A DNA stretch of 64,000 nt from Erysipelotrichaceae bacterium (GCA_017512885.1 JAFWEP010000035.1:5606-69605), one strand, 5' to 3'; numbered from the stretch's first letter, positions 13,039 through 54,126 are shown. Made by a program: numbers and translations. Notes: generated by a model not told the origin, from the letters alone.

Positions 13039-13094
13039 GGGTACCTCCTGTCTGCGTACGATAGGGTAATGCAGAGCTTCTCTGTCTTCATTAT

Positions 13095-13119
13095 ACAGAA
13101 ACAGGACCTTTCGGTCCTG
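13095..13119 (-). terminator. Intrinsic terminator after the XRE gene
   Basis: Minus strand reads CAGGACC-GAAA-GGTCCTG followed by TTTCTG. A TATAAT for the next operon follows. Confidence 0.65.
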
Positions 13120-13135
13120 CGGAATGTCGAAATGA

Positions 13136-16414: not shown

Positions 16415-16763
16415 TGGTGGAGCTGACGGGAATCGAACCCGTGTCCAAAATGCGCCCCACATCCCCACATCTACAGTTTATTCCGAATTTGTTGTAAGAC
16501 GACCTATTTAGCCCGGACTGCCATAAGCCGAATCTGCCTTTTCGGTTTTCGGTAGACGAGATACAGGCTAACTCGTTTTCCCTAGTTCGTACCTACGATC
16601 GGAAGCTACGAACCTTACTTCCGAAAGCTGCTTAGAGCCTATGTCGGCTAACGTTTAAGCAAATGCTAATTCAGTGTTGTCGTTTCTTTTGTTTTGGTGA
16701 TTAGGTCACCGCTCCACTGCCGTTGGGATCCAGCAACATCCTGTCGAGACCAAGTACAGCCCC
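16415..16763 (-). ncRNA. ssrA: tmRNA (transfer-messenger RNA)
   Basis: The 5' end is GGGGCUGUACUUGGUCUCGACAGG. The 3' end is ACGGGUUCGAUUCCCGUCAGCUCCACCA, a tRNA-Ala-like acceptor/T-arm. The internal tag frame reads ...AAC GAC AAC ACU GAA UUA GCA UUU GCU UAA (..NDNTELAFA-stop, stop at 16657-16655). It lies next to smpB. Confidence 0.95.
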
Positions 16764-22114: not shown

Positions 22115-22136
22115 AGGTCTATTATACCTCAATCAT

Positions 22137-31108: not shown

Positions 31109-31852
31109 CTACTGCCAGCTGCGGACAGAGACTTCACCCGAATCCAGGACCCGGATCCCCTCTTCCGTTTCGACGAGCAGTCTTCCCTCATCATCGATGG
31201 CCATGGCTTTGCCGCTGTAAAGCACATCGTTCTCCCGGAAAGTGATCTCCTTTCCTAAAAGGAGCGAAGCTTCGCGGTATTCCGGCAGCAGTTCTTCCTT
31301 CGGCAGACTGACCGCCCGGTTCAGTTCTTTCCAGAGCAGTCCGGCCAGCTTGCTGCGGTCTTCTTCCGAGATATCCAGACTGCCGGCGATATCTGCGATC
31401 TCCGGCGGGAACGCCTGATCGGTGCAGTTGATGCCGATGCCGATGATGATCCAGGAATGTTCCGCCTGCAGCGCTTCGGCCAGGATCCCGCAGACTTTCT
31501 TTCCGTTATAGAAGAGGTCGTTGACCCATTTGATGCCGCATTCCCTGCCGCAGCATTCCTTGATCGCCCGCTGTACGGCGACTCCAGCTGCGATCGTCGG
31601 CAGTTCAGTCTCCTTCCGATCCTGATCGAGCAGGATCGTCAGATAGAGTCCGCTTCCCTTCGGAGAGTAGAAGTCATGACCGTGCCGGCCTCTTCCGGCG
31701 GACTGGAAATCCGAGAGGACCAGCGAGCCGTGAACGGCCTCTCCTCTGCGGATCAGTTCCTTGGCATGATCATTGGTGGAATCGATCTCTTCAAACAGCA
31801 GCAAAGGTGCGTCGCTTTCTGCCAAAGAGAGGATCTTTTCCCGCTCCAGCAT
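31109..31852 (-). CDS. birA: Biotin-[acetyl-CoA-carboxylase] ligase, group I (no N-terminal HTH)
   Basis: 247 aa with QSAGRGRHGHDFYSPKGSGLY and KWVNDLFYNGKKVCGILAE. Confidence 0.9.
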   Translation of the reverse strand: MLEREKILSLAESDAPLLLFEEIDSTNDHAKELIRRGEAVHGSLVLSDFQSAGRGRHGHDFYSPKGSGLYLTILLDQDRKETELPTIAAGVAVQRAIKECCGRECGIKWVNDLFYNGKKVCGILAEALQAEHSWIIIGIGINCTDQAFPPEIADIAGSLDISEEDRSKLAGLLWKELNRAVSLPKEELLPEYREASLLLGKEITFRENDVLYSGKAMAIDDEGRLLVETEEGIRVLDSGEVSVRSWQ

Positions 31853-31853: not shown

Positions 31854-32426
31854 TTATCCGCGCAGAGCCTTGTCAGCCAGCGGCTGCAGTCTGCTGCTCA
31901 GCAGGCAGACGGCAACGATCTTCAGAGCATCGCCGAACAGGAAGGGAACGACGCAGACGCTGAGGGCATAGCCCAGTCCGGAACCGGTCGAAACACAGAA
32001 CCAGACAGTGCCCAGGATATAGCAGGCAGCCGTACCCAGCAGCATGCCCGCTACCAGCATGCCGATCTTCTTCGAACCGGTCATGCCGGCACTCTTTTCA
32101 GCGAACAGTCCGGAGAGCCAGGCATAGGGGATGTAACCGATCATATAACCGCCGGTGACGCCCAGGATCTTGGCGAAACCGCTGCTGTAACCGGCAAAGA
32201 CCGGCATGCCGATGGAACCCAGGATCAGATAGATGATCACTGCCAGAACACTGTTGCGTTTTCCCAACAGGACTCCCGTCAGCATAACGCTCAGCGTTGC
32301 CAGCGAGATCGGTACGCTTCCGGTCAGCGGGATGGAGATCGGAGCAGTAACCGAGATCAGGGCAGCGAAGATACCGATGAGAGCGATCTCACGGGTGGTC
32401 AGCAGTGAAAGACTTTTCTGATTCAT
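31854..32426 (-). CDS. bioY: Biotin transporter S-component BioY
   Basis: Start at MNQKSLSLLTTREIALIGIFAAL behind GAGGT. It has a 6-TM BioY pattern, and its stop lies 1 nt from the birA start. Confidence 0.9.
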   Translation of the reverse strand: MNQKSLSLLTTREIALIGIFAALISVTAPISIPLTGSVPISLATLSVMLTGVLLGKRNSVLAVIIYLILGSIGMPVFAGYSSGFAKILGVTGGYMIGYIPYAWLSGLFAEKSAGMTGSKKIGMLVAGMLLGTAACYILGTVWFCVSTGSGLGYALSVCVVPFLFGDALKIVAVCLLSSRLQPLADKALRG

Positions 32427-32560
32427 AAAAATACCTCTTGTGATTCTATTATCCAACTTTTCCGGGAGACAAATAATACATCTTTCTATATCCTTATATA
32501 CATTGTCGGGTATAACAAACCTGCATGTATACAATAAACGAAATATTTCTGATCATAAAC

Positions 32561-32801: not shown

Positions 32802-33446
32802 TTACCGCATCGCTACGATCGAGATCACCAGCAGTGCACAGGGGATCATGACCGCCTGGACGCCCATCATCCGCGAGAAGATCCCGCCCAGTCCCGCTCC
32901 CAGCATGAACACCAGCAGCAGACTGCCGACCAGGGTTGCCCTTTTCGCATAGTATTCTTCACCGGTATTCAGCGAATAGACCAGAGCGTAAGCGAAACTG
33001 CGCAGATTTCCGGTCGCCATCGTCGTGGTAAAGGTGTATTCCCCTACTTTCCGGAAGGTCTGCAGCTGGATCCCGCAGGCGAAAGCGATCAGCGTATTGG
33101 CGATCGTGTTATGCGCCTCCGGCAGGAAGGCGACGATCAGCAGGATCGCCGCTTCGATCAGGACCGTTTCCTGACGCCAGTGCAGGCCCTGGATATGGCG
33201 GATATCCCGGACATAGACGACCAAAAAGATACCCAGCGTGAAAGTCAGGATCGAGAAGAGATAACGGAAGCAGGAAAAGAGATCTCCGTTCATCAGGGCC
33301 ATGCCGCACTGTACGACATTACCGGTCTGGGTATTCGCAAAGACCCCTCCTCTTACAACATAGCTATAGGCATCGAGGAATCCGCCGGCAACGGTCAGCA
33401 CGACATACAGCGCGAAACTGTTCGATACCTGTTCAGTTTTTGACAT
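32802..33446 (-). CDS. YoaK/DUF1275-family membrane protein
   Basis: Start at MSKTEQVSNSF. The motifs GGFLDAYSY, FANTQTGN and TTTMATGNLR are typical of DUF1275. Confidence 0.75.
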   Translation of the reverse strand: MSKTEQVSNSFALYVVLTVAGGFLDAYSYVVRGGVFANTQTGNVVQCGMALMNGDLFSCFRYLFSILTFTLGIFLVVYVRDIRHIQGLHWRQETVLIEAAILLIVAFLPEAHNTIANTLIAFACGIQLQTFRKVGEYTFTTTMATGNLRSFAYALVYSLNTGEEYYAKRATLVGSLLLVFMLGAGLGGIFSRMMGVQAVMIPCALLVISIVAMR

Positions 33447-33459
33447 ATGCTTCTCCCAT

Positions 33460-33490
33460 AGAAAAGGCGGTGCCGCTCGCACCGCCTTTC
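33460..33490 (-). terminator. Terminator after the decarboxylase operon
   Basis: An 11-bp stem, AAAGGCGGTGC / GCACCGCCTTT, directly after the beta-subunit stop. Confidence 0.65.
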
Positions 33491-33494: not shown

Positions 33495-34658
33495 TTACTT
33501 GAAGAACAGCAGCAGCATACCGGCCGCAACAGCGGAACCGATAACGCCGGCTACGTTCGGGCCCATGGCATGCATGAGCAGGAAGTTGGAAGGATTGTAC
33601 TTGACGCCTTCCTTCTGGACGACACGCGCAGCCATCGGGACAGCCGAGACACCGGCCGCACCGATCATCGGGTTGGTCTTGCCGCCATCGAGCTTGCTCA
33701 TGATCTTGCCCAGAACGACACCGCCGGCAGTACCAAGGCTGAAGGCGATGATACCGAGGGCAATGATCTTGATGGTCTCAGCACGCAGGAACATTTCCGC
33801 AGTAGCCTTCGCACCGACGGTCATACCCAGGAAGACCGAGATGATGTACATCAGGGAGTTCTGTAAGCAGTTGACCAGGAGCGGGACCTGATTGGACTCT
33901 TTCAGCAGGTTACCGAGCATCAGCATGCCGATCAGCGGAGCAGCGTCCGGGAGCAGCAGGCAGGTGAACAGGGTAACGACGACCGGGAAGACGATCTTTT
34001 CCGTCTGAGAGACCGGACGCAGCTGTTCCATCTTGATCTTGCGTTCTTCTTCCGTCGTCAGCAGTTTGATGATCGGAGGCTGGATGACCGGGACCAGAGC
34101 CATGTAGGAGTACGCTGCGATAGCGATCGCACCCAGGAGGTTCGGAGCCAGCTGAGAAGTCAGCAGCAGAGCGGTCGGACCGTCAGCGCCACCGATGATA
34201 CCGATGGAAGCTGCTTCCGGACCGGTGAAGCCCAGAACGATCGCGCCCAGGAAGGTAAAGAAGATACCGAGCTGAGCAGCAGCGCCGAGCAGCAGGGACT
34301 TCGGGTTCGCCAGCAGCGGACCGAAGTCGGTGCCGGCACCGATGCAGAGGAAGATCAGCGGCGGGTAGATACCGAGATCGACACCCTGGTAAAGGTAGTA
34401 CAGCAATCCGCCTTTCGCCGATTCGGTCGCATGATCCATCAGACCGGCCAGAGGCAGGTTGACGAGCAGCATACCGAAGGCGATCGGGATCAGCAGGTAA
34501 GGCTCATAGCCTCTTCCGATAGCCAGGTACAGGAAGAAGCAGGCCAGACACAGCATGATCAGATTGCCAGGCAGAGAGACCGGGCCCAACTGTGTATTGC
34601 AGACAAAGAGCTGAGCCAGACCGGAACTCTGCCAGAATTGCAGAAGGATATCCAGCAT
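33495..34658 (-). CDS. Na+-translocating biotin-dependent decarboxylase, beta (membrane pump) subunit (OadB/MmdB/GcdB/MadB family)
   Basis: 387 aa, polytopic, with family-typical N- and C-terminal halves (...GADGPTALLL..., ...NPMIGAAGVSAVPMAARVV...). Confidence 0.9.
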   Translation of the reverse strand: MLDILLQFWQSSGLAQLFVCNTQLGPVSLPGNLIMLCLACFFLYLAIGRGYEPYLLIPIAFGMLLVNLPLAGLMDHATESAKGGLLYYLYQGVDLGIYPPLIFLCIGAGTDFGPLLANPKSLLLGAAAQLGIFFTFLGAIVLGFTGPEAASIGIIGGADGPTALLLTSQLAPNLLGAIAIAAYSYMALVPVIQPPIIKLLTTEEERKIKMEQLRPVSQTEKIVFPVVVTLFTCLLLPDAAPLIGMLMLGNLLKESNQVPLLVNCLQNSLMYIISVFLGMTVGAKATAEMFLRAETIKIIALGIIAFSLGTAGGVVLGKIMSKLDGGKTNPMIGAAGVSAVPMAARVVQKEGVKYNPSNFLLMHAMGPNVAGVIGSAVAAGMLLLFFK

Positions 34659-34669
34659 GGGTGGCCTCC

Positions 34670-35038
34670 TTACTTCAGAGAGATCAGCAGATCACCGGCA
34701 GAGACTTTATCACCCTTCTTGACAGCAACGCTGGCAACGACGGCATCACGCGGAGCAACGATCTCGTTTTCCATCTTCATGGCTTCGATGATCGCAACGA
34801 CCTGGCCTTCCTTGACGGAATCGCCGGCCTTAACAGCAACGGAAGAGACCGTGCCCTGCAGCGGAGCACTGATATCTCCTGCGCCGCCGGCCGGAGCTGC
34901 GGCCTTCTTCTTGGGAGCCGGTGCGACCGGAGCCGGTGCAGCAGCGACAGCTGCCGGAGCAGCAACGCCGCCCAGTTCTTCTACTTCTACTTCGTGTTCA
35001 ACGCCATCTAAGACGATACGGAATTTCTTGACTGCCAT
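34670..35038 (-). CDS. Biotin carboxyl carrier subunit
   Basis: 122 aa with an Ala/Pro linker and the biotinylation motif EAMKMENEI. Confidence 0.9.
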   Translation of the reverse strand: MAVKKFRIVLDGVEHEVEVEELGGVAAPAAVAAAPAPVAPAPKKKAAAPAGGAGDISAPLQGTVSSVAVKAGDSVKEGQVVAIIEAMKMENEIVAPRDAVVASVAVKKGDKVSAGDLLISLK

Positions 35039-35053
35039 TTTAAGTTCTCCTCC

Positions 35054-35401
35054 TTAATCATTCAGGAAGCCAGTACGGCTTACAGTTGCCCAACTGCCTT
35101 CATCATTGACTTTACGTACACCACGTACGATAAAGCGGTCGGTGCCGAGATATGCGGCGATAGCAGCTGCGGCCAGGATGAACTTGTCGGAATCATCGGT
35201 TTCTTCCTCTTCGACGACAGGTTCAGCGGCCGGAGCAGCCTTGACGGGTTCTTCTTTCTTGCCTTTGTTCAGGATCATGTCGAGGACCTTGGCGACCAGC
35301 TGGATCATGTAACTGATGGCCAGCAGGACCAGGAAGACGACCAGGATACTGACTACAGAGACCAGCAGAGCATCCCCGATGGAAAGTTTATCTCCGAACA
35401 T
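35054..35401 (-). CDS. OadG/MmdD-like small membrane-anchor subunit
   Basis: 115 aa with one N-terminal TM helix and an acidic linker. Its position between the carboxyltransferase and the biotin carrier matches mmd/oad operons. Confidence 0.7.
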   Translation of the reverse strand: MFGDKLSIGDALLVSVVSILVVFLVLLAISYMIQLVAKVLDMILNKGKKEEPVKAAPAAEPVVEEEETDDSDKFILAAAAIAAYLGTDRFIVRGVRKVNDEGSWATVSRTGFLND

Positions 35402-35410
35402 GTCCCCTCC

Positions 35411-36958
35411 TTATAACGGCATGTTGCCGTGTTTCTTGCGGGGTTTGTAGACCTGCTTGCCCTTCAGCGAAGCGAAGGCATCGATCAGACGCTTGCGGCT
35501 CTCGTGCGGCATGATGACGTCATCAACATAGCCACGGGCAGCAGCGACATAGGGGTTCATCGCCATTTCCTGGTATTCAGCCAGCTTTTCAGCTCTCTTG
35601 GCAGCCGGATCTTCAGCGTTCTTGATCTCCTTCGCGAAGATGATGTTGGCAGCACCGTCGCCGCCCATGACCGCGATCTCAGAATCCGGCCAGGCGAAGG
35701 CGATGTCGCTTCCCAGGTGCTTGGAGCACATACCGATGTAAGCGCCGCCGTAAGCCTTACGCATGATCAGGGTGACCATCGGTACGCTTGCTTCCGAGTA
35801 AGCATACAGCATCTTGGCACCGTGACGGATGATTCCGCCGTGTTCCTGAGCGGAGCCCGGCAGGAAGCCAGGAGTATCTTCCAGCGTCAGCATCGGGATG
35901 TTGAAGCAGTCGCAGGTACGGATGAAGCGGGCAGCCTTGTCAGCAGCGTCGATATTCAGACAGCCGGCATTGACCTTCGGCTGGTTGGCGATGACGCCAA
36001 CGCTCTCACCGTTCAGACGGATGAAGCCGGTAACGATGTTCTGAGCGAAAGCTTCCTGCGTTTCGAAGAAGACGCCGTTGTCGGCGATCTTTTCGATAAC
36101 GTCCTTGACATCGTAGGGCTTGTTCGGGTTTTCCGGAACCAGGCTGTCCAGTTCAGCATCAGCGCGGTCGATCGGATCAGCGCATTCATAGCTCGGAGCA
36201 GCTTCCAGATGGTTGGACGGCAGATAGCTCAGCAGTTCACGGATCTGGTTCAGGCATTCGTCTTCGTTCTCGCAGGAGAAGTGAGCGACACCGCTGATAC
36301 GGTTGTGGGCATCAGCGCCGCCCAGAGCTTCACCGGTAACTTCTTCGCCGGTGACCGCACGGATGACGTTCGGGCCGGTGATGTACATCTGACCGATGCC
36401 CTGGACCATGAAGATGAAGTCCGTGATCGCCGGGGAATAGACAGCACCGCCGGCGCACGGTCCCATGATAACGGAGATCTGCGGGATGACACCGGAAGCG
36501 ATGGTGTTGTTGTAGAAGAGACGGCCGTAGCCAGACAGAGCGTCAACGCCCTCCTGGATACGGGCTCCGCCGGAGTCATTGATGCAGACCATCGGAGCGC
36601 CGACCTTCAGTGCAGCTTCCTGCGCTTCAGCGATCTTCATGGCATGCATTTCACCCAGCGAACCGCCAACGACGGTGAAGTCCTGCGCAGCAGCGTAGAC
36701 CAAACGTCCGTTGACCTTACCGTAACCGGTAACGACACCGTCTCCGGCCAGATCTTTCTTTTCCATGCCGAAGTTGGTGCAGCGATGTTTGACGAAGATA
36801 CCGGTTTCCGTGAAGGTGCCTTCATCAAAGAACATTTCGATACGCTCACGAGCGGTGTACTTGCCTAAGCTGTGCTGCTTTTCGATGGCTTTCTCGCCGC
36901 CCCCGAGCATGAGTGCTTTTTTCTTATCCAGCATTTCCTGCTGTCTTTTTGTGGGCAT
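35411..36958 (-). CDS. Acyl-CoA carboxyltransferase, single chain (MmdA/PccB/GcdA family)
   Basis: 515 aa carrying both the N- and C-terminal crotonase-like CT halves (...GGARIQEG..., ...GGAYIGMCSKHLG...). Confidence 0.9.
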   Translation of the reverse strand: MPTKRQQEMLDKKKALMLGGGEKAIEKQHSLGKYTARERIEMFFDEGTFTETGIFVKHRCTNFGMEKKDLAGDGVVTGYGKVNGRLVYAAAQDFTVVGGSLGEMHAMKIAEAQEAALKVGAPMVCINDSGGARIQEGVDALSGYGRLFYNNTIASGVIPQISVIMGPCAGGAVYSPAITDFIFMVQGIGQMYITGPNVIRAVTGEEVTGEALGGADAHNRISGVAHFSCENEDECLNQIRELLSYLPSNHLEAAPSYECADPIDRADAELDSLVPENPNKPYDVKDVIEKIADNGVFFETQEAFAQNIVTGFIRLNGESVGVIANQPKVNAGCLNIDAADKAARFIRTCDCFNIPMLTLEDTPGFLPGSAQEHGGIIRHGAKMLYAYSEASVPMVTLIMRKAYGGAYIGMCSKHLGSDIAFAWPDSEIAVMGGDGAANIIFAKEIKNAEDPAAKRAEKLAEYQEMAMNPYVAAARGYVDDVIMPHESRKRLIDAFASLKGKQVYKPRKKHGNMPL

Positions 36959-36975
36959 TTATACTCTTCCTTTCT

Positions 36976-38619
36976 TTATTTGTTTTCTTCCGGCTTGTAT
37001 TTCAGCTTCTCCGGGATCTCATAGAGTCCGCCGGAGATCTCTGCGATCTCTTCCAGAGACTTCGCAGCAAGCAGGTCCTTATTGGCACGGCTTCTGTCGA
37101 TGCCCAGATCTTCCGGCAGAGCGACCTTGCCCTGACGGCGCAGGCTTTCGATCTCGGAAGCAGGTACCATATCGCCTAACGGAGTACCCTGAGCAACAGC
37201 GCCCATCAGCTTTCCTCTCTCGGCTGCATCCTTTGCAGTGTAGAGGTAAGCGATACCCTGTTCGGTAACGACATGGGTGACATCCTCACCGTACATCATG
37301 ACCGGAACGGAATCCATACCGGCATCCTTACCGATCTTGACCGCATCCAGTTCCGGAACGAAGGCCGGACCGAACTTGGAGGAGGACTTGATCATCTGAA
37401 CGTTCAGCTTGCGGCCGGAGATCAGAGAACCGTTGCCCGGTGCCATATCCATCCAGGCTTTCGTCGTATGACGACGGCCGCCGGTGGAGTTACCCATATT
37501 CGGAGCTCCGCCGTAACCGGAGAGACGTCCATTGGTGACCGTAGAAGAGTTACCGGCATAGTCCATCTGCAGCGTTCCGCCTAAGAACAGATCCATACCG
37601 TACAGACCGGCGCACTGTGCATAAGCACGGTTGGAACGGAGGGAGCCGTCCTTACCGGTGAAGAAGATATCCGGGTGAGCGGAAGTATACTTGTCCATGC
37701 CGACTTCGCCGCCGAAGGCAACGACAGACTTGACCCAGCCGTCTTCGATCGCCGGGATCAGCGTCGGATGCGGGTTCAGGACCCAGTTGGTGCAGATCTT
37801 GCCCTTCAGACCCAGTTCGTTACCGTAGGTCGGGAGCAGCAGTTCGATCGCGCATCCGTTGTAACCGATACCATGGTTCAGCGTCTTGACTTCGTGCTTT
37901 GCGTAGATGCCCTTGATGACCATCATCGCCTGCAGGATGTGAGCATCCTGGATCTTGCGCGGATCTCTGGTGAACAGCGGTACCATCGGGTAGGGCTGAT
38001 CAGCCTGAACGATGAAGTCGACCCAGTCGGACGGAATGTCGACGCGCGGCAGATCTTCGGTATCAACGATGCTGTTGACCTGAGCGATGACGATGCCATC
38101 CTTGAAGGCAGCAGCCTCGGTGATCATCGGGGTGTCTTCCGTGTTGAAACCGGTGTAGAGGTTACCGTTGCGGTCAGCCTTATCAGCAGCGATCAGGCAG
38201 ACGTTCGGGATCAGGTCGACATACATACGGCTGTAAAGTTCCAGATACGTATGGATGGCACCGATCTTCAGTTTGTGTTCTGCCAGCATCTGGGAGAGCT
38301 GTAAGCTCTGAACACCGGCAAAGGCGAAGTTAAGTTCCTCAGCAATGCCCTTCTCGAAGATCTCGAGGTGTTCATTACGGGAAATGGACGGGATCAGCAT
38401 GTTCAGGTGGTTGACCTTGGACGGATCCACTTTCGTCAGAGCACCGGCCAGGAATGCGGCCTGTTTCTGGTTGCAGCCCTCCAGTACGACTTTGTCATAA
38501 GGATGAATGACTGCTTCCAGCAGCTTGACGATGTCTTCGGTCGCGACGACTTTGCCGTCAGCGAACGAAGCGGCGTTGAGGCGCTCTTTTTTAGATTGTC
38601 TCTGTGTGTCCCACTTCAT
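36976..38619 (-). CDS. mdcA: Malonate decarboxylase alpha subunit homolog (acetyl-S-ACP:malonate ACP-transferase / CoA-transferase-like)
   Basis: 547 aa with long collinear similarity to MdcA/MadA as I remember them (LEGCNQKQAAFLA..., IGAIHTYLELYSRMYVDLIPNV..., DGIVIAQVN..., LNPHPTLIPAIEDGWV..., GGAPNMG). Confidence 0.85.
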   Translation of the reverse strand: MKWDTQRQSKKERLNAASFADGKVVATEDIVKLLEAVIHPYDKVVLEGCNQKQAAFLAGALTKVDPSKVNHLNMLIPSISRNEHLEIFEKGIAEELNFAFAGVQSLQLSQMLAEHKLKIGAIHTYLELYSRMYVDLIPNVCLIAADKADRNGNLYTGFNTEDTPMITEAAAFKDGIVIAQVNSIVDTEDLPRVDIPSDWVDFIVQADQPYPMVPLFTRDPRKIQDAHILQAMMVIKGIYAKHEVKTLNHGIGYNGCAIELLLPTYGNELGLKGKICTNWVLNPHPTLIPAIEDGWVKSVVAFGGEVGMDKYTSAHPDIFFTGKDGSLRSNRAYAQCAGLYGMDLFLGGTLQMDYAGNSSTVTNGRLSGYGGAPNMGNSTGGRRHTTKAWMDMAPGNGSLISGRKLNVQMIKSSSKFGPAFVPELDAVKIGKDAGMDSVPVMMYGEDVTHVVTEQGIAYLYTAKDAAERGKLMGAVAQGTPLGDMVPASEIESLRRQGKVALPEDLGIDRSRANKDLLAAKSLEEIAEISGGLYEIPEKLKYKPEENK

Positions 38620-38663
38620 AATGATTTGGTTCCTTTCTATATGCCTCCATCGTAACGATGCGC

Positions 38664-38705
38664 TTTCATAGCGTCTAATATAAGATTTGGTATTGTTTCA
38701 TAGCG
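38664..38705. promoter_or_regulatory. Direct repeat TTTCATAGCG x2 (32-nt spacing) in the mdcA/madL divergent control region
   Basis: Exact 10-mers at 38664-38673 and 38696-38705. A third TCATAGC sits at 38811-38817, and ATGCAT-N6-ATGCAT at 38859-38876. Confidence 0.4.
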
Positions 38706-39019
38706 GGATTGTTATTTTTCGTACAAAAGAATGGCATAAAGTTAACCGTCATTGGTTTCTGTCAAAGTCTCGTGAAAACAGGGTGTTTTATCTACAAATT
38801 TTTTTACAGATCATAGCTTATATAAGAACTGTGCAGTCATACAGGACTATTTCGGTCTATGCATAAGCAAATGCATTTTCTGTTATCAATTCGGTAATTC
38901 CTTCGGTAAATCTTAACAGTTTCGTTATATGTGATTGTTCAAACATATATTAGACACCGGAAATCATTCACCGCTATTCTTTGGCTATATTGATACAGGT
39001 GAAAGGAGTATTTAGAATC

Positions 39020-39379
39020 ATGGGTATTTATGGTTTAGGCATCATCGGCGCCTGCATGTTCGCCGGATGCTTCCTCGGAAACCTGCTGGGTGCCGCACTG
39101 GGTCTGAACAGTGATGTCGGCGGCGTAGGTTTTGCGATGGTCTTCTTTATTCTTATTCAGGTCTATCTTGCAAAGACCGGTAAGAAACTTCATCCGAAGA
39201 CGGAAGGCGGCATTGAATTCATCTCCGCCCTCTACATCCCGGTCGTTGTCGCTATGAGCATGAACCAGGATGTTTATTCCGCTGTTGCTTCCGGACTGGT
39301 TCCGATCATCTCCGGTATCCTGGCCGTTATCATCCCGCTTCTGTGCATTCCGCTCATCAGCAAGCTGGCGAAGGACTAA
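39020..39379 (+). CDS. madL: Malonate transporter subunit MadL
   Basis: Start at MGIYGLGIIGACMFAGCFLGNLLG behind AAAGGAG. It is about 120 aa with 4 TM helices and is paired with a MadM-like gene. Confidence 0.8.
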   Translation: MGIYGLGIIGACMFAGCFLGNLLGAALGLNSDVGGVGFAMVFFILIQVYLAKTGKKLHPKTEGGIEFISALYIPVVVAMSMNQDVYSAVASGLVPIISGILAVIIPLLCIPLISKLAKD

Positions 39380-39399: not shown

Positions 39400-40227
39400 A
39401 TGGCAATCTTTGCAAAAATGGCTGCCGGCTACGGCTTAGTCGGTTCCTTCATCCTCACTGCAGTTGTAACGTTCCTCGGCTACAAGGTAGCTGAACTGAT
39501 CGGTCAGAAGAGAATGGGCTCCGCCTTCGCGATCCTGCTCGCTCTGGTCGTTGCCTACATCGGCGGCGTCATCGCTCACAAGCAGATGGATGCCGGTGTC
39601 CTGACTTCCGCTTCCAAAGGTATCACCGATGTCGTCTACGCTGTCGGTTCCGGCGATTCCCTGAAGAAGTTTGCGATCTTCTCCGGTGTCGGTATCCTCG
39701 GCGGCGGTATGATGCGTGACTTTGCGATCATCTCCACAGCCTGGGGCATCGATCCGAAGAACCTGGTCAAGGCCGGTCTGGCAGGTATCGTTGCTCTGGC
39801 TCTCGGTCTCTTCTTCTCCTTCGCTATCGGCGTCGTTGTCGGTCTGATCTTCGGTTACAGAGATGTATACGAACTCGCTACGATCGGTGCCGGCGTTCAG
39901 ACCTTCGTTGTCGGTCCGGTCACAGGCGCTGCCTTCGGTGTCAGCTCTGACGTCGTCGCTCTGTCCATCGCTGCCGGTGCCGTCAAGTCCATCGCTGCGA
40001 TGATCATCGCTCCGCTGATCGCCAAGAAGATCAAGCTGGACAACCCGACTGCTGCCATGATCTTCGGCGGTCTGATCGGCTCTACTTCCGGTACTGCCGG
40101 CGGTCTGGCTGCTGTCGATGCCAAGCTGGTCCCCTACGGCGCCATGGTCGCTACCTTCTACACCGGCCTCGGCTGTCTGCTCACTCCAACAGTCTTCACG
40201 GCTGCGCTGCGTCTCTTCATCCACTAA
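39400..40227 (+). CDS. madM: Malonate transporter subunit MadM
   Basis: 275 aa, polytopic and Gly/Ala-rich, behind the RBS GAGGAGG. It starts 20 nt after madL. Confidence 0.8.
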   Translation: MAIFAKMAAGYGLVGSFILTAVVTFLGYKVAELIGQKRMGSAFAILLALVVAYIGGVIAHKQMDAGVLTSASKGITDVVYAVGSGDSLKKFAIFSGVGILGGGMMRDFAIISTAWGIDPKNLVKAGLAGIVALALGLFFSFAIGVVVGLIFGYRDVYELATIGAGVQTFVVGPVTGAAFGVSSDVVALSIAAGAVKSIAAMIIAPLIAKKIKLDNPTAAMIFGGLIGSTSGTAGGLAAVDAKLVPYGAMVATFYTGLGCLLTPTVFTAALRLFIH

Positions 40228-40254: not shown

Positions 40255-40282
40255 CAGACAGGCTTCGGCCTGTCTGTTTTTT
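40255..40282 (+). terminator. Intrinsic terminator after madM
   Basis: CAGACAGGC-TTCG-GCCTGTCTG-TTTTTT. Confidence 0.85.
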
Positions 40283-40389: not shown

Positions 40390-41325
40390 ATGAATTTCCA
40401 CAGTTTGTATTTTTTCAAAAAAGTCGCTGAACTCCAGCATCTTACCAAAGCAGCCGAAAAACTCTTCATCTCCCAGCCCTCGCTGAGCCGCTCGATCTCC
40501 TCTCTGGAGGACGAGCTCGGGGTAAAGCTTTTTGACCGTGTAGGCAAAAGCATCGTCCTGAACGACTACGGGCGCATCGTCCTGCAGCATGCCGAAAACA
40601 TCTTCAAGGAAGAAGAAGCGATCCATTCCGAGATCGCCGACTTCAAGAAGGAAGGTTCCAAGACCGTCCACCTGTCCATGCGGGCCGGTACCCAGCACCT
40701 GGCCGAGCTCTTATACGGCTTTGCCCGTCTTTATCCCAACATCAAAGTCTCGACCCTGCAGGGCTATATCGAGAAAGAAGACTTTGAAAAGATGGATCTC
40801 CGGATCATCGCCCGCAACCAGAAAGAAACCAATCCCCATGAATTCCTCCTCTATTCCGAGCGGATCATGGTCGCTCTGCCGGCCGATCATCCTCTGGCCT
40901 TCCATAAGACCATCAATATCTCCGAACTGAAGGACCAGCATTTCGTCTCTCTGAAGAAAGGCAACGCTCTGCGTGATCTGCTGGACCAGTACTGCCTGAA
41001 TGCCGGTTTCGAACCGAATATCTTCATCGAATGCAACTCTGCCGAGACGGTCCGTAAGATGCTGCGTCTGGGCGGAAACATCTCGCTGGTACCGGAACTC
41101 TCCTGGGGCGGCATCTCCACCGACAACACCGTCCTGCGCCCGCTGTCCTCACCGCAGGGCACCCGTTACCTGTACCTGATCGAAAACAAGCCCTACCTCA
41201 GCGAATCGGCCAAGTGCTTCCGCGATTATACCCTGCAGTATTTCCGGGACATCGTCGAGAACGGACCGAATGCCTATATCTCCGGTCACTTCCAGAAAAA
41301 GAAAAAAACAGATAAGACCGTCTGA
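40390..41325 (+). CDS. LysR-family transcriptional regulator
   Basis: N-terminal HTH FKKVAELQHLTKAAEKLFISQPSLSRSISSLEDELGVKLFDR, followed by a periplasmic-binding-protein-like effector domain. Confidence 0.9.
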   Translation: MNFHSLYFFKKVAELQHLTKAAEKLFISQPSLSRSISSLEDELGVKLFDRVGKSIVLNDYGRIVLQHAENIFKEEEAIHSEIADFKKEGSKTVHLSMRAGTQHLAELLYGFARLYPNIKVSTLQGYIEKEDFEKMDLRIIARNQKETNPHEFLLYSERIMVALPADHPLAFHKTINISELKDQHFVSLKKGNALRDLLDQYCLNAGFEPNIFIECNSAETVRKMLRLGGNISLVPELSWGGISTDNTVLRPLSSPQGTRYLYLIENKPYLSESAKCFRDYTLQYFRDIVENGPNAYISGHFQKKKKTDKTV

Positions 41326-41444
41326 CAGGCGGTCTTATAACTGTTTCGGTATAAAGGATTCGAATTATTCTTGCATCGCCGTCTGAAAGAAGGACCTATA
41401 ATCGGTATATACAACCTTTTACTGCCGATTTGGAGGTCCTTCCT

Positions 41445-42386
41445 ATGAACAGTTTTCTCATGGCCCTCAATGCCGTCGTACCCATGTTCTGCATGCTGGG
41501 GCTGGGCTATTTCCTGAGACGCATCGCCTTCCTGGACGAAACGACCCTGAACCGCCTGAACAAGCTCTGCTTCAAGGTCTTCCTGGCCACCAATGTCTAC
41601 TACAACATCTATAAGACCGATATCGCCGAAGTCTTTAATGCCAGGCTGCTGCTCTATGCCTGTTTTTCACAGATCCTGGTCCTGGCCATCTCCGTAGCTG
41701 CCGCTCTGTTCACAGAGAAAGACAAAAAGAGACGGGGCGCCCTCGCCCACGGCATCTTCCATACCAATTTCGTCATCTTCGGCACCCTCATCGGTACGGC
41801 CATCTGCGGTGAAAACAATATCGGCGGCATCGTCCTGCTGATCGCCGTCATCGTCCCCCTCCAGAACATCCTTTCCGTAGCCCTGCTGGAACACTTCCGG
41901 GAAGGCGGCAGTTCCTCTCTTTCATCCACTCTGCGCTCGGTGCTGAAGAATCCTTACGTGATCGCTGCTCTGCTGGGCTTTGCCACCCAGCTGCTGCACA
42001 TTCACTTCCCGGACTTCCTGGCCGGGGTCTTCCGCGATCTCGGCCGCTGCGGCACCCCGCTGGCACTGATCGCCATGGGCGGTCTCTTCAACTTCGGTTC
42101 CATCAGGGACAATCTGCGTCCGATCTTCACCGGTGTCCTCTTCCGTCTGGTCATCGTTCCGACCCTGCTGATCGCCCTGACTCTGCTGCTGGGCTTCCGC
42201 GGCAATGAATTCGTCGCCCTGATGTGCATCTTCATCGCTCCCTGCGCTACAACTTCCTTCAACCTGGCCAGCCAGATGGATTCCGATGCCGATCTGGCCG
42301 GACAGCTGGTCGTCTTCACTTCCCTCTTCTCCCTGCTGACGATCTTCCTATGGATCTTCGGACTGAGTTCAGCCGGTATCTTCTAG
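41445..42386 (+). CDS. AEC (auxin efflux carrier) family permease, same family as the Klebsiella malonate carrier MdcF
   Basis: Start at MNSFLMALNAVVPMF behind GGAGG. About 10 TM helices. Confidence 0.8.
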   Translation: MNSFLMALNAVVPMFCMLGLGYFLRRIAFLDETTLNRLNKLCFKVFLATNVYYNIYKTDIAEVFNARLLLYACFSQILVLAISVAAALFTEKDKKRRGALAHGIFHTNFVIFGTLIGTAICGENNIGGIVLLIAVIVPLQNILSVALLEHFREGGSSSLSSTLRSVLKNPYVIAALLGFATQLLHIHFPDFLAGVFRDLGRCGTPLALIAMGGLFNFGSIRDNLRPIFTGVLFRLVIVPTLLIALTLLLGFRGNEFVALMCIFIAPCATTSFNLASQMDSDADLAGQLVVFTSLFSLLTIFLWIFGLSSAGIF

Positions 42387-42472: not shown

Positions 42473-42506
42473 AAAAGACCGGGATCGTGTGATCCCGGTC
42501 TTCTTT
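42473..42506. terminator. Bidirectional terminator between the AEC permease and eno
   Basis: A 12-bp stem AAGACCGGGATC / GATCCCGGTCTT with a GTGT loop, flanked by A/T runs. Confidence 0.8.
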
Positions 42507-52154: not shown

Positions 52155-52598
52155 TTAAGCCTCCTCTTCCAGCAGGATCGTGACCGGACCGTCATTGACC
52201 AGAGCGATCTTCATATCGGCGCCGAAGATCCCGGTCTCTGTCCGCAGTCCTTCCTGCCTCAGACAGTCATTAAAATATTCGTAGTATTCCTTTGCCTGTT
52301 CTCCCTTCATGGCCCTCACGAAACTGGGCCGGTTGCCCTTGCGGGCATCCCCGTAAAGGGTGAACTGGGAGATCGAGAGGATCGCTCCTCCGACCGCAAA
52401 GATATCCCTGTTCAGTTTCTGCTGCTCATCTTCGAAGATGCGCAGATGTGCGACTTTATATGCCTGATGGGCAATGATCTCTTTCGTATCGCGCTCTTCG
52501 ATGCCGACCAGCAGGAGATAGCCCTTTCCGATCTCTCCGGTGATCTTTCCCTCCACGCTGCAGGAAGCCGAAGAGACCCTTTGTACAACGATCCTCAT
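52155..52598 (-). CDS. dtd: D-aminoacyl-tRNA deacylase
   Basis: MRIVVQRVSSASCSVEGK...SQFTLYGDARKGNRPSF...NDGPVTILL. Confidence 0.92.
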   Translation of the reverse strand: MRIVVQRVSSASCSVEGKITGEIGKGYLLLVGIEERDTKEIIAHQAYKVAHLRIFEDEQQKLNRDIFAVGGAILSISQFTLYGDARKGNRPSFVRAMKGEQAKEYYEYFNDCLRQEGLRTETGIFGADMKIALVNDGPVTILLEEEA

Positions 52599-54028: not shown

Positions 54029-54126
54029 ATACAGATCCCCCTTTCTGTCATTATACCCTATCGGGAAAGGTATCTCTTCGGTTTTGCGCGGAACGTAGTA
54101 TGATAGATACAAACGGAGGAAGTGTT

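What the first reader, a model, noticed from the sequence alone, without database searches (positions are those of the whole stretch)
33495..38619. MdcA/MadA homolog inside a methylmalonyl-CoA-decarboxylase-type Na+ pump operon, with no ACP or prosthetic-group genes
Seen in the sequence:
- Five co-directional genes are separated by only 9-17 nt.
- They are a 547-aa MdcA-like gene, a 515-aa single-chain acyl-CoA carboxyltransferase (MmdA/PccB type), an OadG-like anchor, a biotin carrier with EAMKMENE, and an OadB/MmdB-type membrane subunit.

Established knowledge:
- The characterised malonate decarboxylases are Klebsiella mdcABCDEGH and Malonomonas madABCDEFGH.
- They move malonate onto a dedicated ACP that carries a 2'-(5''-phosphoribosyl)-3'-dephospho-CoA group.
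- They need MdcB/MdcG-type genes to make and attach that group.
- They use two-subunit carboxyltransferases (MdcD/E or MadC/D).

None of those genes is in this 64-kb window. The carboxyltransferase here is the type that acts on free acyl-CoA esters.

Inference:
- The MdcA homolog may act as an acetyl-CoA:malonate CoA-transferase.
- It would feed malonyl-CoA to a biotin-dependent, Na+-translocating decarboxylase.
- That would be an ACP-independent hybrid route for energy-conserving malonate decarboxylation.
- As far as I know, this gene architecture has not been characterised.
Basis: partly seen in the sequence, partly recalled or inferred. Interest (0 to 1): 0.8.

Follow-up and report, generated by a model that had tools for sequence, protein, structure and literature searches.

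The report
ACP-free sodium-pumping malonate decarboxylase operon
This gut or rumen Firmicute carries an operon that most likely converts malonate to acetate and CO2 through free malonyl-CoA and a biotin-driven sodium pump; no paper I could search describes this design of malonate decarboxylase, yet it is common in uncultured gut and rumen bacteria.

Summary
Five minus-strand genes at 38619..33495, separated by 9-17 nt, encode an MdcA homolog, a single-chain acyl-CoA carboxyltransferase, an OadG-like anchor, a biotin carrier (EAMKMENE) and an OadB-type beta subunit.

madL-madM, a LysR regulator and an AEC transporter lie divergently upstream. BioY and a biotin ligase lie downstream.

No MdcC, MdcB, MdcG, MdcH or MdcD/E gene was found in the window or in 42 related species-level loci. 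All 46 ACP-type comparison loci have the ACP gene.

The ACP-less MdcAs form one clade. They keep every catalytic and malonate-binding residue of P. aeruginosa MdcA. They have replaced the MdcA-MdcC docking residues: F424 to non-aromatic, E466 to Q, G489 to Q, I490 to G. A Bradyrhizobium MdcA linked to a soluble malonyl-CoA decarboxylase lost the same residues independently.

The carboxyltransferase carries Ile at the PccB D422 specificity position in 37 of 37 cases.

It remains untested biochemically, and absence of the ACP genes from the whole genome could not be checked. I rate it a new variant of a known kind, interest about 0.65.

The parts
36976..38619 (-). mdcA homolog (547 aa): proposed acetyl-CoA:malonate CoA-transferase acting on free CoA esters
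   Evidence: Pfam PF16957, 837 bits; TIGR01110, 809.8 bits against cutoff 789. Aligns to P. aeruginosa MdcA 5VIT with 697 bits. Catalytic and malonate-binding residues are conserved: N50, Y125, R218, N248, N282, F302, R331, Q335, G371. ACP-docking positions are replaced: K411, S413, Q454, Q477, G478.
35411..36958 (-). Single-chain acyl-CoA:biotin carboxyltransferase (515 aa): proposed malonyl-CoA:biotin-protein carboxyltransferase
   Evidence: Carboxyl_trans, 657 bits; TIGR01117, 832 bits, below its cutoff. Best PDB matches are 1vrg, 3n6r, PccB and 12S; GcdA is not among them. Ile408 sits at the PccB D422 / D407 position, as in 37 of 37 MdcA-linked homologs.
35054..35401 (-). OadG/MmdD-like small membrane anchor subunit (115 aa)
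   Evidence: Pfam OAD_gamma, 43 bits; TIGR01195, 30.5 bits. Its position is conserved in 27 related loci.
34670..35038 (-). Biotin carboxyl carrier protein (122 aa) with an Ala/Pro linker and the EAMKMENE biotinylation motif
   Evidence: Pfam Biotin_lipoyl, 70 bits; translation.
33495..34658 (-). OadB/MmdB-type carboxybiotin decarboxylase, the Na+-translocating beta subunit (387 aa)
   Evidence: OAD_beta, 516 bits; TIGR01109, 478 bits against cutoff 191. The MadB model TIGR03136 gives only 183 bits against cutoff 597. The alignment to Salmonella OadB 6iva keeps D203, Y229, N373, G377, S382 and R389. Identity to R. capsulatus MadB is 33%.
32802..33482 (-). DUF1275 membrane protein. It lies on the same strand, but whether it belongs to the system is doubtful.
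   Evidence: Pfam DUF1275. It is absent from all related loci. A strong hairpin at 33463-33489 overlaps its annotated start.
31854..32534 (-). BioY biotin transporter
   Evidence: Pfam BioY. It recurs next to the operon in 8 related loci and in the R. capsulatus mad cluster.
31109..31852 (-). Biotin--protein ligase (BirA-like, no HTH domain)
   Evidence: Pfam BPL_LplA_LipB plus BPL_C. It recurs in 13 related loci.
38620..39020 (.). AT-rich divergent control region between mdcA and madL, carrying repeated motifs that are candidate LysR operators
   Evidence: TTTCATAGCG occurs twice. GTCTAATATAAGA lies near the mdcA side (38673-38687) and its inverted copy near the madL side (38941-38955). An ATAAC..GCTAT / ATA..TAT core upstream of mdcA is conserved in related loci. 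A promoter-like site lies at 38990-39018.
39021..39379 (+). madL, malonate:Na+ symporter small subunit. The real start is probably ATG 39021 (119 aa), not the TTG at 38981.
   Evidence: TIGR00807 malonate_madL, 103.7 bits. Called as 119 aa with Pfam MadL on identical metagenome contigs. An RBS sequence precedes ATG 39021.
39400..40227 (+). madM, malonate:Na+ symporter large subunit
   Evidence: Pfam MadM, 274 bits. A terminator-like hairpin follows at 40255-40276.
40390..41325 (+). LysR-family regulator (MdcR-like role inferred)
   Evidence: Pfam HTH_1 plus LysR_substrate. A LysR gene is adjacent to mdcA in 32 of 42 related loci.
41430..42386 (+). AEC-family transporter, the same family as Klebsiella MdcF. 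Possibly a second malonate carrier or an acetate exporter.
   Evidence: Pfam Mem_trans; TIGR00946. 24% identity to the Klebsiella AEC gene that follows mdcE, E = 8e-8. Orthologs (67-76% identity) are present in 7 related loci.

Best explanation
The locus encodes an ACP-independent, biotin-dependent, Na+-translocating malonate decarboxylase that works through free CoA thioesters.

Proposed cycle:
1. MadLM, and perhaps the AEC carrier, import malonate.
2. The MdcA homolog transfers CoA from acetyl-CoA to malonate, giving malonyl-CoA and acetate.
3. [quoted passage not shown] This regenerates acetyl-CoA, so CoA cycles catalytically and no priming enzyme is needed.
4. The OadB-type beta subunit, held together with the soluble parts by the OadG-like anchor, decarboxylates carboxybiotin and exports Na+.
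5. BioY and the biotin ligase supply and attach biotin.
6. The LysR protein switches the two divergent transcription units on.

What the sequence shows: gene identities, conserved synteny, absence of ACP-system genes near the operon, loss of the ACP-docking residues, and conservation of catalytic, malonate-binding, biotinylation and Na+-site residues.

What is inferred: the actual CoA-transferase activity, the malonyl-CoA preference of the carboxyltransferase, Na+ coupling, and induction by malonate.
For: **Gene content and spacing:**

**Malonate context:** madL/madM, LysR and the AEC transporter are adjacent.

**Conserved synteny:** In 42 species-level loci from the ACP-less clade (GTDB representative genomes), 34 have the carboxyltransferase directly after mdcA. 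28 have carboxyltransferase, biotin carrier and OadB. None has any ACP-system gene within +/-10 kb. All 46 ACP-type loci have mdcC.

**HMM searches:** Profiles for MdcC, MdcB, MdcG and MdcH found nothing in 944,014 residues of six-frame ORFs (E > 1). Controls gave 1e-44 to 1e-132.

**MdcA catalytic residues:** All residues named in the P. aeruginosa structure paper (PMC5534430) are invariant.

**MdcA docking residues:** Of 538 aligned columns, 14 have disjoint residue sets between ACP-less and ACP-linked MdcAs. These 14 include 3 of the 4 MdcA-MdcC interface residues mutated in that paper (F424, E466, I490), hypergeometric P = 5.6e-5. F424A alone broke the holoenzyme.

**Independent loss:** A Bradyrhizobium MdcA followed by a soluble malonyl-CoA decarboxylase gene changed the same positions (Q422, H424, K466, D490). 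A classical Bradyrhizobium MdcA keeps E, F, E, Y at those positions.

**Phylogeny:** The ACP-less Firmicute MdcAs are monophyletic and sister to ACP-type Firmicute MdcAs.

**Split variants:** Some genomes have LysR + MdcA + carboxyltransferase only, or LysR + MdcA alone. This fits a freely diffusing intermediate.

**Carboxyltransferase specificity:** Ile at the PccB D422 position in 37 of 37 cases. D-to-I substitutions raise acetyl-CoA use, and the promiscuous acyl-CoA carboxylase beta subunit of S. coelicolor (AccB), which accepts acetyl-CoA, naturally has Ile (PMC7835884).

**Na+ pump:** The Na+-site residues of OadB are conserved.

**In vitro precedent:** Isolated MdcA makes malonyl-CoA from acetyl-CoA and malonate (PMC8288269).
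Against: - Only 64 kb of this genome, and at most +/-10 kb around each relative, could be inspected. An ACP with MdcB/MdcG elsewhere is not excluded.
- The MdcA still passes NCBI's equivalog model for the ACP transferase (809.8 bits against 789). It is 58% identical to P. aeruginosa MdcA, so sequence alone cannot prove a change of acceptor.
- The changed surface could instead serve docking to a different partner.
- Ile at the D422 position is not diagnostic. The T. maritima homolog 1vrg also has Ile, and a genuine propionyl-CoA carboxylase (3n6r) has Val.
- I had no verified MmdA sequence for comparison.
- No cultured organism with the operon was found, and no expression or enzyme data exist.
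Confidence: 0.75

Rival explanations
1. The system is a Mad-like, ACP-dependent malonate decarboxylase. Its ACP (MadE/MdcC) and prosthetic-group genes (MdcB/CitG, MdcG/CitX, MdcH/MadH) are encoded elsewhere in the genome.
For: The MdcA homolog passes the TIGR01110 equivalog cutoff. Whole genomes could not be searched. Clostridium luticellarii and C. moutaii show that mdcB/G/H can lie away from mdcA-mdcC-mdcDE.
Against: mdcC lies within about 1 kb downstream of mdcA in every ACP-type locus examined, and 46 of 46 have it. None of the 42 loci of this clade has it. The docking residues F424, E466, G489 and I490 are all replaced. The carboxyltransferase is a free acyl-CoA type, not MadC/D or MdcD/E. 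HMM searches were negative.
Confidence: 0.08
2. The operon is an ordinary methylmalonyl-CoA decarboxylase Na+ pump for succinate-to-propionate fermentation. The MdcA homolog would serve as a succinate, propionate or methylmalonate CoA-transferase.
For: The four pump genes resemble mmdA, mmdD, mmdC and mmdB, and TIGR01117 mmdA is the best NCBIfam hit. The known route in Propionigenium begins with a CoA-transferase (PMC8085960).
Against: The malonate pocket is unchanged (R331, N282, Q335, F302 in window numbering). madL/madM lie next door. The window contains no methylmalonyl-CoA mutase or epimerase. The mmdA score is below the curated cutoff. Ile rather than Asp occupies the propionyl-specificity position.
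Confidence: 0.07
3. The chemistry is the same, but the role is not energy conservation. The operon might detoxify malonate (an inhibitor of succinate dehydrogenase and fumarate reductase). Alternatively the pump might run in reverse, using the Na+ gradient to carboxylate acetyl-CoA.
For: Malonate uptake by MadLM costs Na+, so the net gain is small (PMC8085960). Variants with MdcA alone or MdcA plus carboxyltransferase lack a linked pump.
Against: The Na+-site residues and the complete pump operon are conserved in 28 loci. A dedicated uptake system argues for catabolism.
Confidence: 0.07

Closest known systems
Biotin-dependent Na+-translocating malonate decarboxylase of Malonomonas rubra (madABCDEFGH + madLM, EC 7.2.4.4). 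A mad-type cluster on Rhodobacter capsulatus pRCB133 served as the comparison here (L083).
   Same: A MadA/MdcA-family transferase activates malonate. The carboxyl group is passed to a biotin carrier. A membrane beta subunit decarboxylates carboxybiotin. MadL/MadM perform uptake. Biotin ligase and BioY genes are linked.
   Different: This locus has no ACP (MadE), no MdcB/MdcG/MadH and no two-subunit MadC/MadD carboxyltransferase. It has a single-chain PccB/MmdA-type carboxyltransferase instead. The beta subunit is OadB-type: 33% identity to MadB, and the TIGR03136 score is far below its cutoff. An OadG-like anchor is present. The ACP-docking residues of the transferase are lost.
Biotin-independent malonate decarboxylase of Klebsiella, Pseudomonas and Acinetobacter (mdcABCDEGH, EC 4.1.1.88). 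Structure 5VIT.
   Same: The MdcA homolog is 58% identical over its full length, with identical catalytic and malonate-binding residues. A LysR regulator and MadLM or AEC transporters are also present.
   Different: This locus has no MdcC, MdcD/E, MdcB, MdcG or MdcH. It depends on biotin and is membrane-coupled. The MdcA-MdcC interface residues are replaced.
Na+-translocating methylmalonyl-CoA decarboxylase of Veillonella parvula and Propionigenium modestum (mmdADECB / mmdADCB, EC 7.2.4.3).
   Same: The same four-part architecture acting on a free acyl-CoA: single-chain carboxyltransferase, OadG-like delta subunit, small biotin carrier and OadB-type beta subunit. From my own recollection, these enzymes also decarboxylate malonyl-CoA.
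   Different: The operon starts with mdcA and sits beside malonate transporter genes. No mutase or epimerase is nearby. The carboxyltransferase scores below the mmdA cutoff. The proposed substrate is malonyl-CoA.
Malonyl-CoA-dependent malonate fermentation of Sporomusa malonica (Dehning and Schink 1994, Antonie van Leeuwenhoek). This is my own recollection; the paper is not in the searchable library.
   Same: Physiological evidence for malonate activation by CoA transfer from acetyl-CoA, followed by a malonyl-CoA decarboxylase. This is exactly the route proposed here.
   Different: No genes were assigned. A 2021 review treats S. malonica together with the ACP-dependent M. rubra system. I could not check whether the S. 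malonica genome carries this operon.
Malonyl-CoA routes with a soluble decarboxylase: Rhizobium matABC (synthetase plus MatA), and the mdcA + malonyl-CoA decarboxylase pair on Bradyrhizobium sp. CB82 plasmid pCB82_1 (L089).
   Same: Free malonyl-CoA is the intermediate. In CB82 an MdcA homolog without an ACP has lost the same docking residues.
   Different: The decarboxylase is soluble and biotin-independent, so no ion pumping occurs. MatB spends ATP instead of transferring CoA.

Membership tests
Biotin-independent malonate decarboxylase (Mdc, EC 4.1.1.88) | MdcA alpha subunit (acetyl-S-ACP:malonate ACP transferase) | tested here: met
   TIGR01110, 809.8 bits against cutoff 789; PF16957, 837 bits. 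697 bits to 5VIT chain A.
Biotin-independent malonate decarboxylase (Mdc, EC 4.1.1.88) | MdcC acyl carrier protein encoded with mdcA | tested here: not met
   tblastn found none. An unfiltered MdcC HMM gave best E = 3.3 across the window and 43 related loci, against controls of 1e-44. Whole genome not testable.
Biotin-independent malonate decarboxylase (Mdc, EC 4.1.1.88) | MdcD/MdcE decarboxylase subunits | tested here: not met
   The only match is a weak one of the MdcD part to the acyl-CoA carboxyltransferase (TIGR03133, 68 bits against cutoff 278).
Biotin-independent malonate decarboxylase (Mdc, EC 4.1.1.88) | Prosthetic-group genes mdcB and mdcG, and the priming transacylase mdcH | tested here: not met
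   The HMMs found nothing (E > 1), while controls gave 1e-75 to 1e-132.
Biotin-independent malonate decarboxylase (Mdc, EC 4.1.1.88) | MdcA surface that docks MdcC (F424, E466, I490, R521 of P. aeruginosa MdcA) | tested here: not met
   The window has S413, Q454 and G478; R509 is retained. The first three are replaced in all 30 ACP-less sequences and conserved in all 47 ACP-linked sequences.
Biotin-dependent Na+ malonate decarboxylase (Mad, EC 7.2.4.4) | MadE ACP with MadG/MadH-type activation genes | tested here: not met
   Same searches as above. For comparison, the R. capsulatus mad cluster has all of them.
Biotin-dependent Na+ malonate decarboxylase (Mad, EC 7.2.4.4) | Two-subunit malonyl-S-ACP:biotin carboxyltransferase MadC/MadD | tested here: not met
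   A single 515-aa Carboxyl_trans protein of the PccB/MmdA type is present instead.
Biotin-dependent Na+ malonate decarboxylase (Mad, EC 7.2.4.4) | MadB carboxybiotin decarboxylase | tested here: not met
   TIGR03136, 183 bits against cutoff 597. 33% identity to R. capsulatus MadB. The protein is a homolog, but of the OadB type.
Biotin-dependent Na+ malonate decarboxylase (Mad, EC 7.2.4.4) | Biotin carrier and MadL/MadM uptake system | tested here: met
   Biotin_lipoyl domain with EAMKM. MadM, 274 bits; MadL, 103.7 bits against cutoff 113.
Na+-translocating methylmalonyl-CoA decarboxylase (Mmd, EC 7.2.4.3) | MmdA carboxyltransferase at equivalog or subfamily level | tested here: inconclusive
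   TIGR01117, 832.5 bits against cutoff 998.8. Ile408 at the specificity position. No verified MmdA was available for comparison.
Na+-translocating methylmalonyl-CoA decarboxylase (Mmd, EC 7.2.4.3) | Beta subunit, delta (OadG-like) subunit and small biotin carrier | tested here: met
   TIGR01109, 478 bits against cutoff 191. Pfam OAD_gamma is above its cutoff. A biotin carrier is present, although NF047903 MmdC gives 92.6 bits against cutoff 200.
Na+-translocating methylmalonyl-CoA decarboxylase (Mmd, EC 7.2.4.3) | Physiological substrate (S)-methylmalonyl-CoA, with a mutase/epimerase/succinate context | tested here: not met
   No mutase or epimerase among the window genes examined. The context is malonate transport. 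Substrate preference itself is not testable with these tools.
Na+-transporting carboxylic acid decarboxylase superfamily (TC 3.B.1) | Beta subunit with the conserved Na+ and proton pathway residues (OadB D203, Y229, N373, G377, S382, R389; the list is from my own knowledge) | tested here: met
   All six align to identical residues in the window protein.

The most novel reading that the evidence does not exclude
This operon would be a third class of malonate decarboxylase with no gene-level description in the papers I could search. It needs no ACP and works through free malonyl-CoA. An MdcA lineage has become a true CoA-transferase, and the pump is of the methylmalonyl-CoA decarboxylase type. 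It would be the missing genetic basis for the malonyl-CoA-dependent malonate fermentation seen in Sporomusa malonica. It would also give many uncultured gut and rumen Firmicutes a decarboxylation-driven source of sodium-motive force.
Probability: 0.6. Interest if true: 0.72.

Novelty: new variant of a known kind. Interest (0 to 1): 0.65.

Why it matters
Textbook and review accounts, including a 2021 review, recognise two malonate decarboxylase designs. Both depend on a dedicated ACP with an unusual prosthetic group.

A third design that recycles ordinary CoA would have several consequences:
- It would explain old enzymology that was never tied to genes.
- It would correct the automatic annotation of thousands of metagenomic genes now labelled 'malonate decarboxylase subunit alpha' and 'methylmalonyl-CoA decarboxylase / propionyl-CoA carboxylase beta'.
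- It would add malonate, which is abundant in legumes and other plant material, to the substrates that gut and rumen Firmicutes can use for Na+-based energy conservation.
- It would supply a natural malonate CoA-transferase for making malonyl-CoA in biotechnology.

The residue signature also gives a simple sequence test that separates ACP-dependent from ACP-independent MdcA proteins. In P. aeruginosa numbering it is E422, aromatic 424, E466, G489 and hydrophobic 490 in the ACP-dependent forms, with these residues lost in the ACP-independent forms.

Tried and rejected
- **Literature.** Ten full-text searches found no paper describing an mdcA + mmdA-type operon. The comparative-genomics paper of Suvorova et al. 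2012 (PMC3370838) is not held. Dehning and Schink 1994 is not in the library, so the Sporomusa precedent rests on my memory.

- **Representative-library search**. At 50% identity the whole MdcA family collapses into essentially one full-length representative plus fragments. A family-wide census of the docking signature was therefore not possible. This also shows why the two kinds have not been separated by clustering.

- **Search for a cultured carrier.** None was found among the ACP-less loci or among the members of the ten clusters examined.

- **Carboxyltransferase specificity.** The D422-equivalent residue is consistently Ile, but it is not diagnostic. I could not obtain a verified Veillonella or Propionigenium MmdA for comparison.

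- **First HMM run with --max including the long MdcDE model.** It timed out. It was repeated without that model.

- **Succinate/propionate reading.** Considered and rejected. No mutase or epimerase was found in the window.

- **Citrate-lyase-type carrier system in the window.** Considered and rejected. There was no CitG/MdcB hit.

- **GC content.** It shows no sign that the locus is a recent foreign island.

Full report
**1. The observation**

The region holds five co-directional ORFs on the minus strand:
- 38619..36976, 547 aa
- 36958..35411, 515 aa
- 35401..35054, 115 aa
- 35038..34670, 122 aa
- 34658..33495, 387 aa

The gaps between them are 17, 9, 15 and 11 nt.

Profile searches identify them as follows:
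- an MdcA-family protein (Pfam Mal_decarbox_Al, 837 bits; NCBIfam TIGR01110, 809.8 bits against a cutoff of 789)
- a single-chain acyl-CoA carboxyltransferase (Carboxyl_trans, 657 bits; TIGR01117 mmdA, 832 bits, below its cutoff of 999)
- an OAD_gamma protein
- a biotinyl carrier
- an OAD_beta protein (TIGR01109, 478 bits)

The carrier reads ...IIEAMKMENEIV....

**2. Surroundings**

Divergently upstream lie four genes:
- madL (TIGR00807, 103.7 bits; real start probably ATG 39021)
- madM (Pfam MadM, 274 bits)
- a LysR regulator
- an AEC-family transporter

The AEC transporter belongs to the same family as the AEC gene that follows mdcE in Klebsiella (24% identity, E = 8e-8).

Downstream on the operon strand lie a DUF1275 protein, BioY and a biotin-protein ligase.

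The other genes examined in the window are unrelated to this pathway: RNase R, a GH9 cellulase, Tex, MetRS, a P-type ATPase, an amidase, a MATE pump, a tmRNA and enolase. No methylmalonyl-CoA mutase or epimerase and no citrate lyase gene was seen.

The identical MdcA protein occurs on metagenome contigs with the same gene order. The closest genomes are ruminant-gut Erysipelotrichaceae and Solobacterium MAGs, with 83-92% identity for MdcA.

**3. Absence of the ACP machinery**

I took reference MdcB, MdcC, MdcD/E, MdcG and MdcH sequences from a Paraburkholderia locus, and MdcC and a fused MdcDE from a Clostridium locus. All were verified with NCBIfam or Pfam.

tblastn found none of them in the window. 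The only match was a weak one of the MdcD part to the acyl-CoA carboxyltransferase.

I then built profile HMMs from 8-15 diverse sequences each. They were run without filters over every six-frame ORF of at least 40 aa in the window and 43 related loci, 944,014 residues in all. No hit was better than E = 1.4. Loci held out as controls scored 1e-44 to 1e-132.

**4. The arrangement is conserved and widespread**

A scan of one genome per GTDB species returned 80 loci.

The 42 closest have MdcA 65-92% identical to the window. They come from Erysipelotrichaceae, Solobacterium, Bulleidia, Angelakisella, Ruthenibacterium, other Oscillospiraceae, Peptoniphilaceae, Mageeibacillus and Clostridiaceae MAGs, plus one Spirochaetaceae MAG. 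Their content is:

| Feature next to mdcA | Loci (of 42) |
|---|---|
| Carboxyltransferase directly after mdcA | 34 |
| Carboxyltransferase + biotin carrier + OadB | 28 |
| LysR gene beside mdcA | 32 |
| madLM | 6 |
| BioY | 8 |
| Biotin ligase | 13 |
| Any ACP-system gene | 0 |

Most of the loci lacking pump genes are cut by contig ends.

In contrast, all 46 ACP-type loci carry mdcC, and where I read the positions it lies within about 1 kb downstream of mdcA. These are Paraburkholderia, three Clostridium species, Lactiplantibacillus, Streptomyces, Klebsiella, Acinetobacter, Azospirillum, Variovorax, Cupriavidus and R. capsulatus.

Independent gene calls with precomputed Pfam hits confirm the full operon in another lineage. 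There it is followed by an amidase, a biotin ligase and BioY.

Two reduced variants exist:
- LysR + MdcA + a 542-aa carboxyltransferase, in a very common gut organism
- LysR + MdcA alone beside a biotin ligase/repressor gene, in a protein cluster with 2690 members

Splitting the transferase from the decarboxylase is easy to understand if the intermediate is a diffusible CoA ester. It is harder to understand if the intermediate is a protein-bound thioester.

**5. The transferase has lost its ACP-docking surface**

The P. aeruginosa holoenzyme structure (PMC5534430) names two sets of MdcA residues:
- malonate-binding and catalytic: N59, Y134, R228, N258, I261, N292, F312, R341, Q345, G381
- at the MdcA-MdcC interface, by mutagenesis: F424, E466, I490, R521. 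F424A alone abolishes holoenzyme formation.

I verified the numbering against the PDB alignment and aligned 68-70 MdcA sequences.

The catalytic and malonate residues are invariant in all groups.

The interface is different:

| Position (P. aeruginosa) | 47 ACP-linked sequences | 30 ACP-less Firmicute sequences |
|---|---|---|
| 424 | aromatic (F/W/Y) | S/R/K/A/H/N |
| 466 | Glu | Gln |
| 489 | Gly | Gln (one Arg) |
| 490 | V/I/Y/F | Gly (one Ala) |

The ACP-linked set includes the mad-type R. capsulatus protein and Gram-positive representatives. In the window the four positions are S413, Q454, Q477 and G478.

Only 14 of 538 columns have disjoint residue sets between the two groups. Eight of them fall between positions 422 and 495. 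Three are among the four experimentally named interface residues (hypergeometric P = 5.6e-5).

E422, invariant in ACP-linked proteins, is usually Lys in the ACP-less clade (K411 in the window). I speculate that this helps bind the 3'-phosphate that free CoA has and the ACP prosthetic group lacks.

**6. An independent second case**

On Bradyrhizobium sp. CB82 plasmid pCB82_1, mdcA is followed by a gene annotated as a malonyl-CoA decarboxylase family protein. No ACP gene is present.

Its MdcA has Q422, H424, K466 and D490. A classical Bradyrhizobium plasmid mdcA with mdcC, D, E, G and B has E, F, E and Y at those positions.

In a neighbour-joining tree the CB82 protein lies far from the Firmicute ACP-less clade. 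That clade is monophyletic and sister to ACP-type Firmicute MdcAs.

Two lineages that pair MdcA with an enzyme acting on free malonyl-CoA have thus both shed the same docking residues. This is the strongest argument that these MdcAs no longer use an ACP.

**7. The decarboxylase module**

The carboxyltransferase is closest to T. maritima 1vrg, to propionyl-CoA carboxylase beta subunits and to the 12S transcarboxylase subunit. Glutaconyl-CoA decarboxylase is not among the matches.

Comparing wild-type and engineered M. extorquens PccB entries locates the D407 position, which is D422 in S. coelicolor PccB. The window protein has Ile408 there, as do all 37 MdcA-linked homologs.

According to PMC7835884:
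- Asp at this site is typical of propionyl-CoA-specific enzymes.
- The promiscuous acyl-CoA carboxylase beta subunit of S. coelicolor (AccB), which accepts acetyl-CoA, has Ile.
- D-to-I substitutions raise acetyl-CoA use.

This fits an acetyl-/malonyl-CoA pair but is not diagnostic. 1vrg also has Ile, and a genuine propionyl-CoA carboxylase (3n6r) has Val.

The beta subunit aligns to Salmonella OadB (385 bits). Identical residues occupy D203, Y229, N373, G377, S382 and R389; the list of functional residues is my own knowledge. It is only 33% identical to MadB.

**8. Mechanism**

The most likely cycle is:
1. Malonate is taken up by MadLM.
2. MdcA transfers CoA from acetyl-CoA to malonate.
3. 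The carboxyltransferase transfers the carboxyl group to biotin and regenerates acetyl-CoA.
4. The beta subunit decarboxylates carboxybiotin and exports Na+.

Because acetyl-CoA is an ordinary metabolite, none of the priming and prosthetic-group genes of the Mdc and Mad systems is needed. This matches their absence.

Isolated MdcA can perform the CoA transfer. It is used with phosphotransacetylase to make malonyl-CoA in a cell-free cannabinoid process, where the review calls it a non-natural cascade (PMC8288269). P. aeruginosa MdcD-MdcE also accepts malonyl-CoA (PMC5534430).

From memory, the Veillonella and Propionigenium methylmalonyl-CoA decarboxylases also decarboxylate malonyl-CoA. Also from memory, Dehning and Schink (1994) inferred a malonyl-CoA route in Sporomusa malonica. 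Neither source could be read here.

**9. Regulation (inferred)**

The 400-bp region between mdcA and madL carries TTTCATAGCG twice. It also carries GTCTAATATAAGA near mdcA, with an inverted copy near madL.

An ATAAC...GCTAT / ATA...TAT core upstream of mdcA is shared with related loci. These are plausible LysR operators.

Terminator-like hairpins follow madM (40255-40276) and the AEC gene (42475-42502).

**10. Comparison with known systems and novelty**

The locus fails the defining tests for Mdc: no ACP, no MdcD/E, no MdcB/G/H, and the docking surface is lost. It also fails those for Mad: no ACP, no MadC/D, and no MadB-type beta subunit.

It matches the architecture of methylmalonyl-CoA decarboxylase. 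It differs from that enzyme in its genetic context and in its leading transferase gene.

It is best described as a hybrid. A malonate-specific MdcA-lineage CoA-transferase feeds an Mmd-type Na+ pump.

Ten full-text searches found no description of this arrangement. A 2021 review of energy-conserving decarboxylases knows only the ACP route.

At 50% identity all MdcAs fall into one cluster, and NCBI's equivalog model accepts the window protein. This probably explains why the distinction has gone unnoticed.

I rate it a new variant of a known kind. The case rests on comparative genomics and is directly testable, but no enzyme or expression data exist for it yet.

**11. Limits**

- No whole genome was available.
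- No cultured carrier was found.
- No verified MmdA was available for the specificity comparison.
- The changed surface of MdcA could in principle dock a different partner rather than none.

Noticed in passing
L089 (Bradyrhizobium sp. CB82 plasmid pCB82_1, NZ_CP121651.1) 6020-9929: LysR, then mdcA, then a gene annotated 'malonyl-CoA decarboxylase family protein', with no ACP genes. This is a second ACP-less MdcA architecture, using a soluble decarboxylase. Its MdcA has also lost the ACP-docking residues (Q422, H424, K466, D490). Bradyrhizobium sp. 172 (L104) has the classical mdcACDEGB cluster and keeps them.
   Followed up: partly
L083 (Rhodobacter capsulatus SB 1003 plasmid pRCB133) 4779-17170: A complete Malonomonas-type (mad) cluster in a purple bacterium: mdcB, madB, biotin ligase, madA, ACP, two carboxyltransferase subunits, an AMP-binding protein, mdcG, a small biotin protein, madL, madM, ECF components and BioY. 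RefSeq labels the carboxyltransferase subunits 'biotin-independent'.
   Followed up: partly
L090-L092, L102-L103 (metagenome contigs carrying P0076/P0069); L099-L101 (P0115); L026, L027, L031-L034: Reduced variants of the system. One is LysR + MdcA + a longer (542 aa) carboxyltransferase with no pump genes nearby. The other is LysR + MdcA alone, next to a BirA-type ligase/repressor gene. Both are very abundant in metagenomes (hundreds of contigs; a 2690-member protein cluster). Where the remaining subunits are encoded is unknown.
   Followed up: partly
L093-L095, 15182-18207; window 52595-54112 (-): In Clostridiaceae and Saccharofermentanales MAGs the pump operon continues with an amidase-signature enzyme, a biotin ligase and BioY. 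The window also has an amidase gene 14 kb away. Malonamidase E2 of Bradyrhizobium belongs to this family (my own knowledge), so malonamate could be an upstream substrate.
   Followed up: no
window 38620-39020: Repeated motifs lie in the divergent mdcA/madL control region. TTTCATAGCG occurs twice (38664 and 38696). GTCTAATATAAGA at 38673-38687 has an inverted copy at 38941-38955. A related copy sits at 38812-38827. These are candidate LysR operators.
   Followed up: partly
window 33463-33489: A strong 11-bp GC-rich hairpin lies immediately after the beta-subunit stop codon and overlaps the annotated GTG start of the DUF1275 ORF. The DUF1275 gene probably starts later and may be a separate transcription unit. 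It is absent from all related loci.
   Followed up: no
L040 and L043 (Clostridium moutaii, C. luticellarii) 9000-13600: A compact LysR, mdcA, mdcC and fused mdcDE cluster with no mdcB, mdcG or mdcH within 10 kb. In C. luticellarii ethanolamine-utilisation genes follow it. This shows that prosthetic-group genes can be unlinked in some ACP-type systems.
   Followed up: no
window 16415-16763 (-): A tmRNA gene (Rfam RF00023, 104.6 bits) with the predicted tag peptide DNTELAFA.
   Followed up: no
window 19970-22132 (-): A GH9 cellulase with a CelD_N domain, consistent with a plant-fibre (rumen or gut) habitat for this organism.
   Followed up: no
P0189, P0198 (representative-library hits, 38% identity to the window MdcA): Divergent full-length MdcA-family proteins. 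They keep the ACP-docking signature (E422, F424, G489, Y490) but have lost most malonate-binding and catalytic residues (for example R341P/C, N292R/V, Q345V/A). They may be a paralogous ACP transferase for another acid.
   Followed up: no
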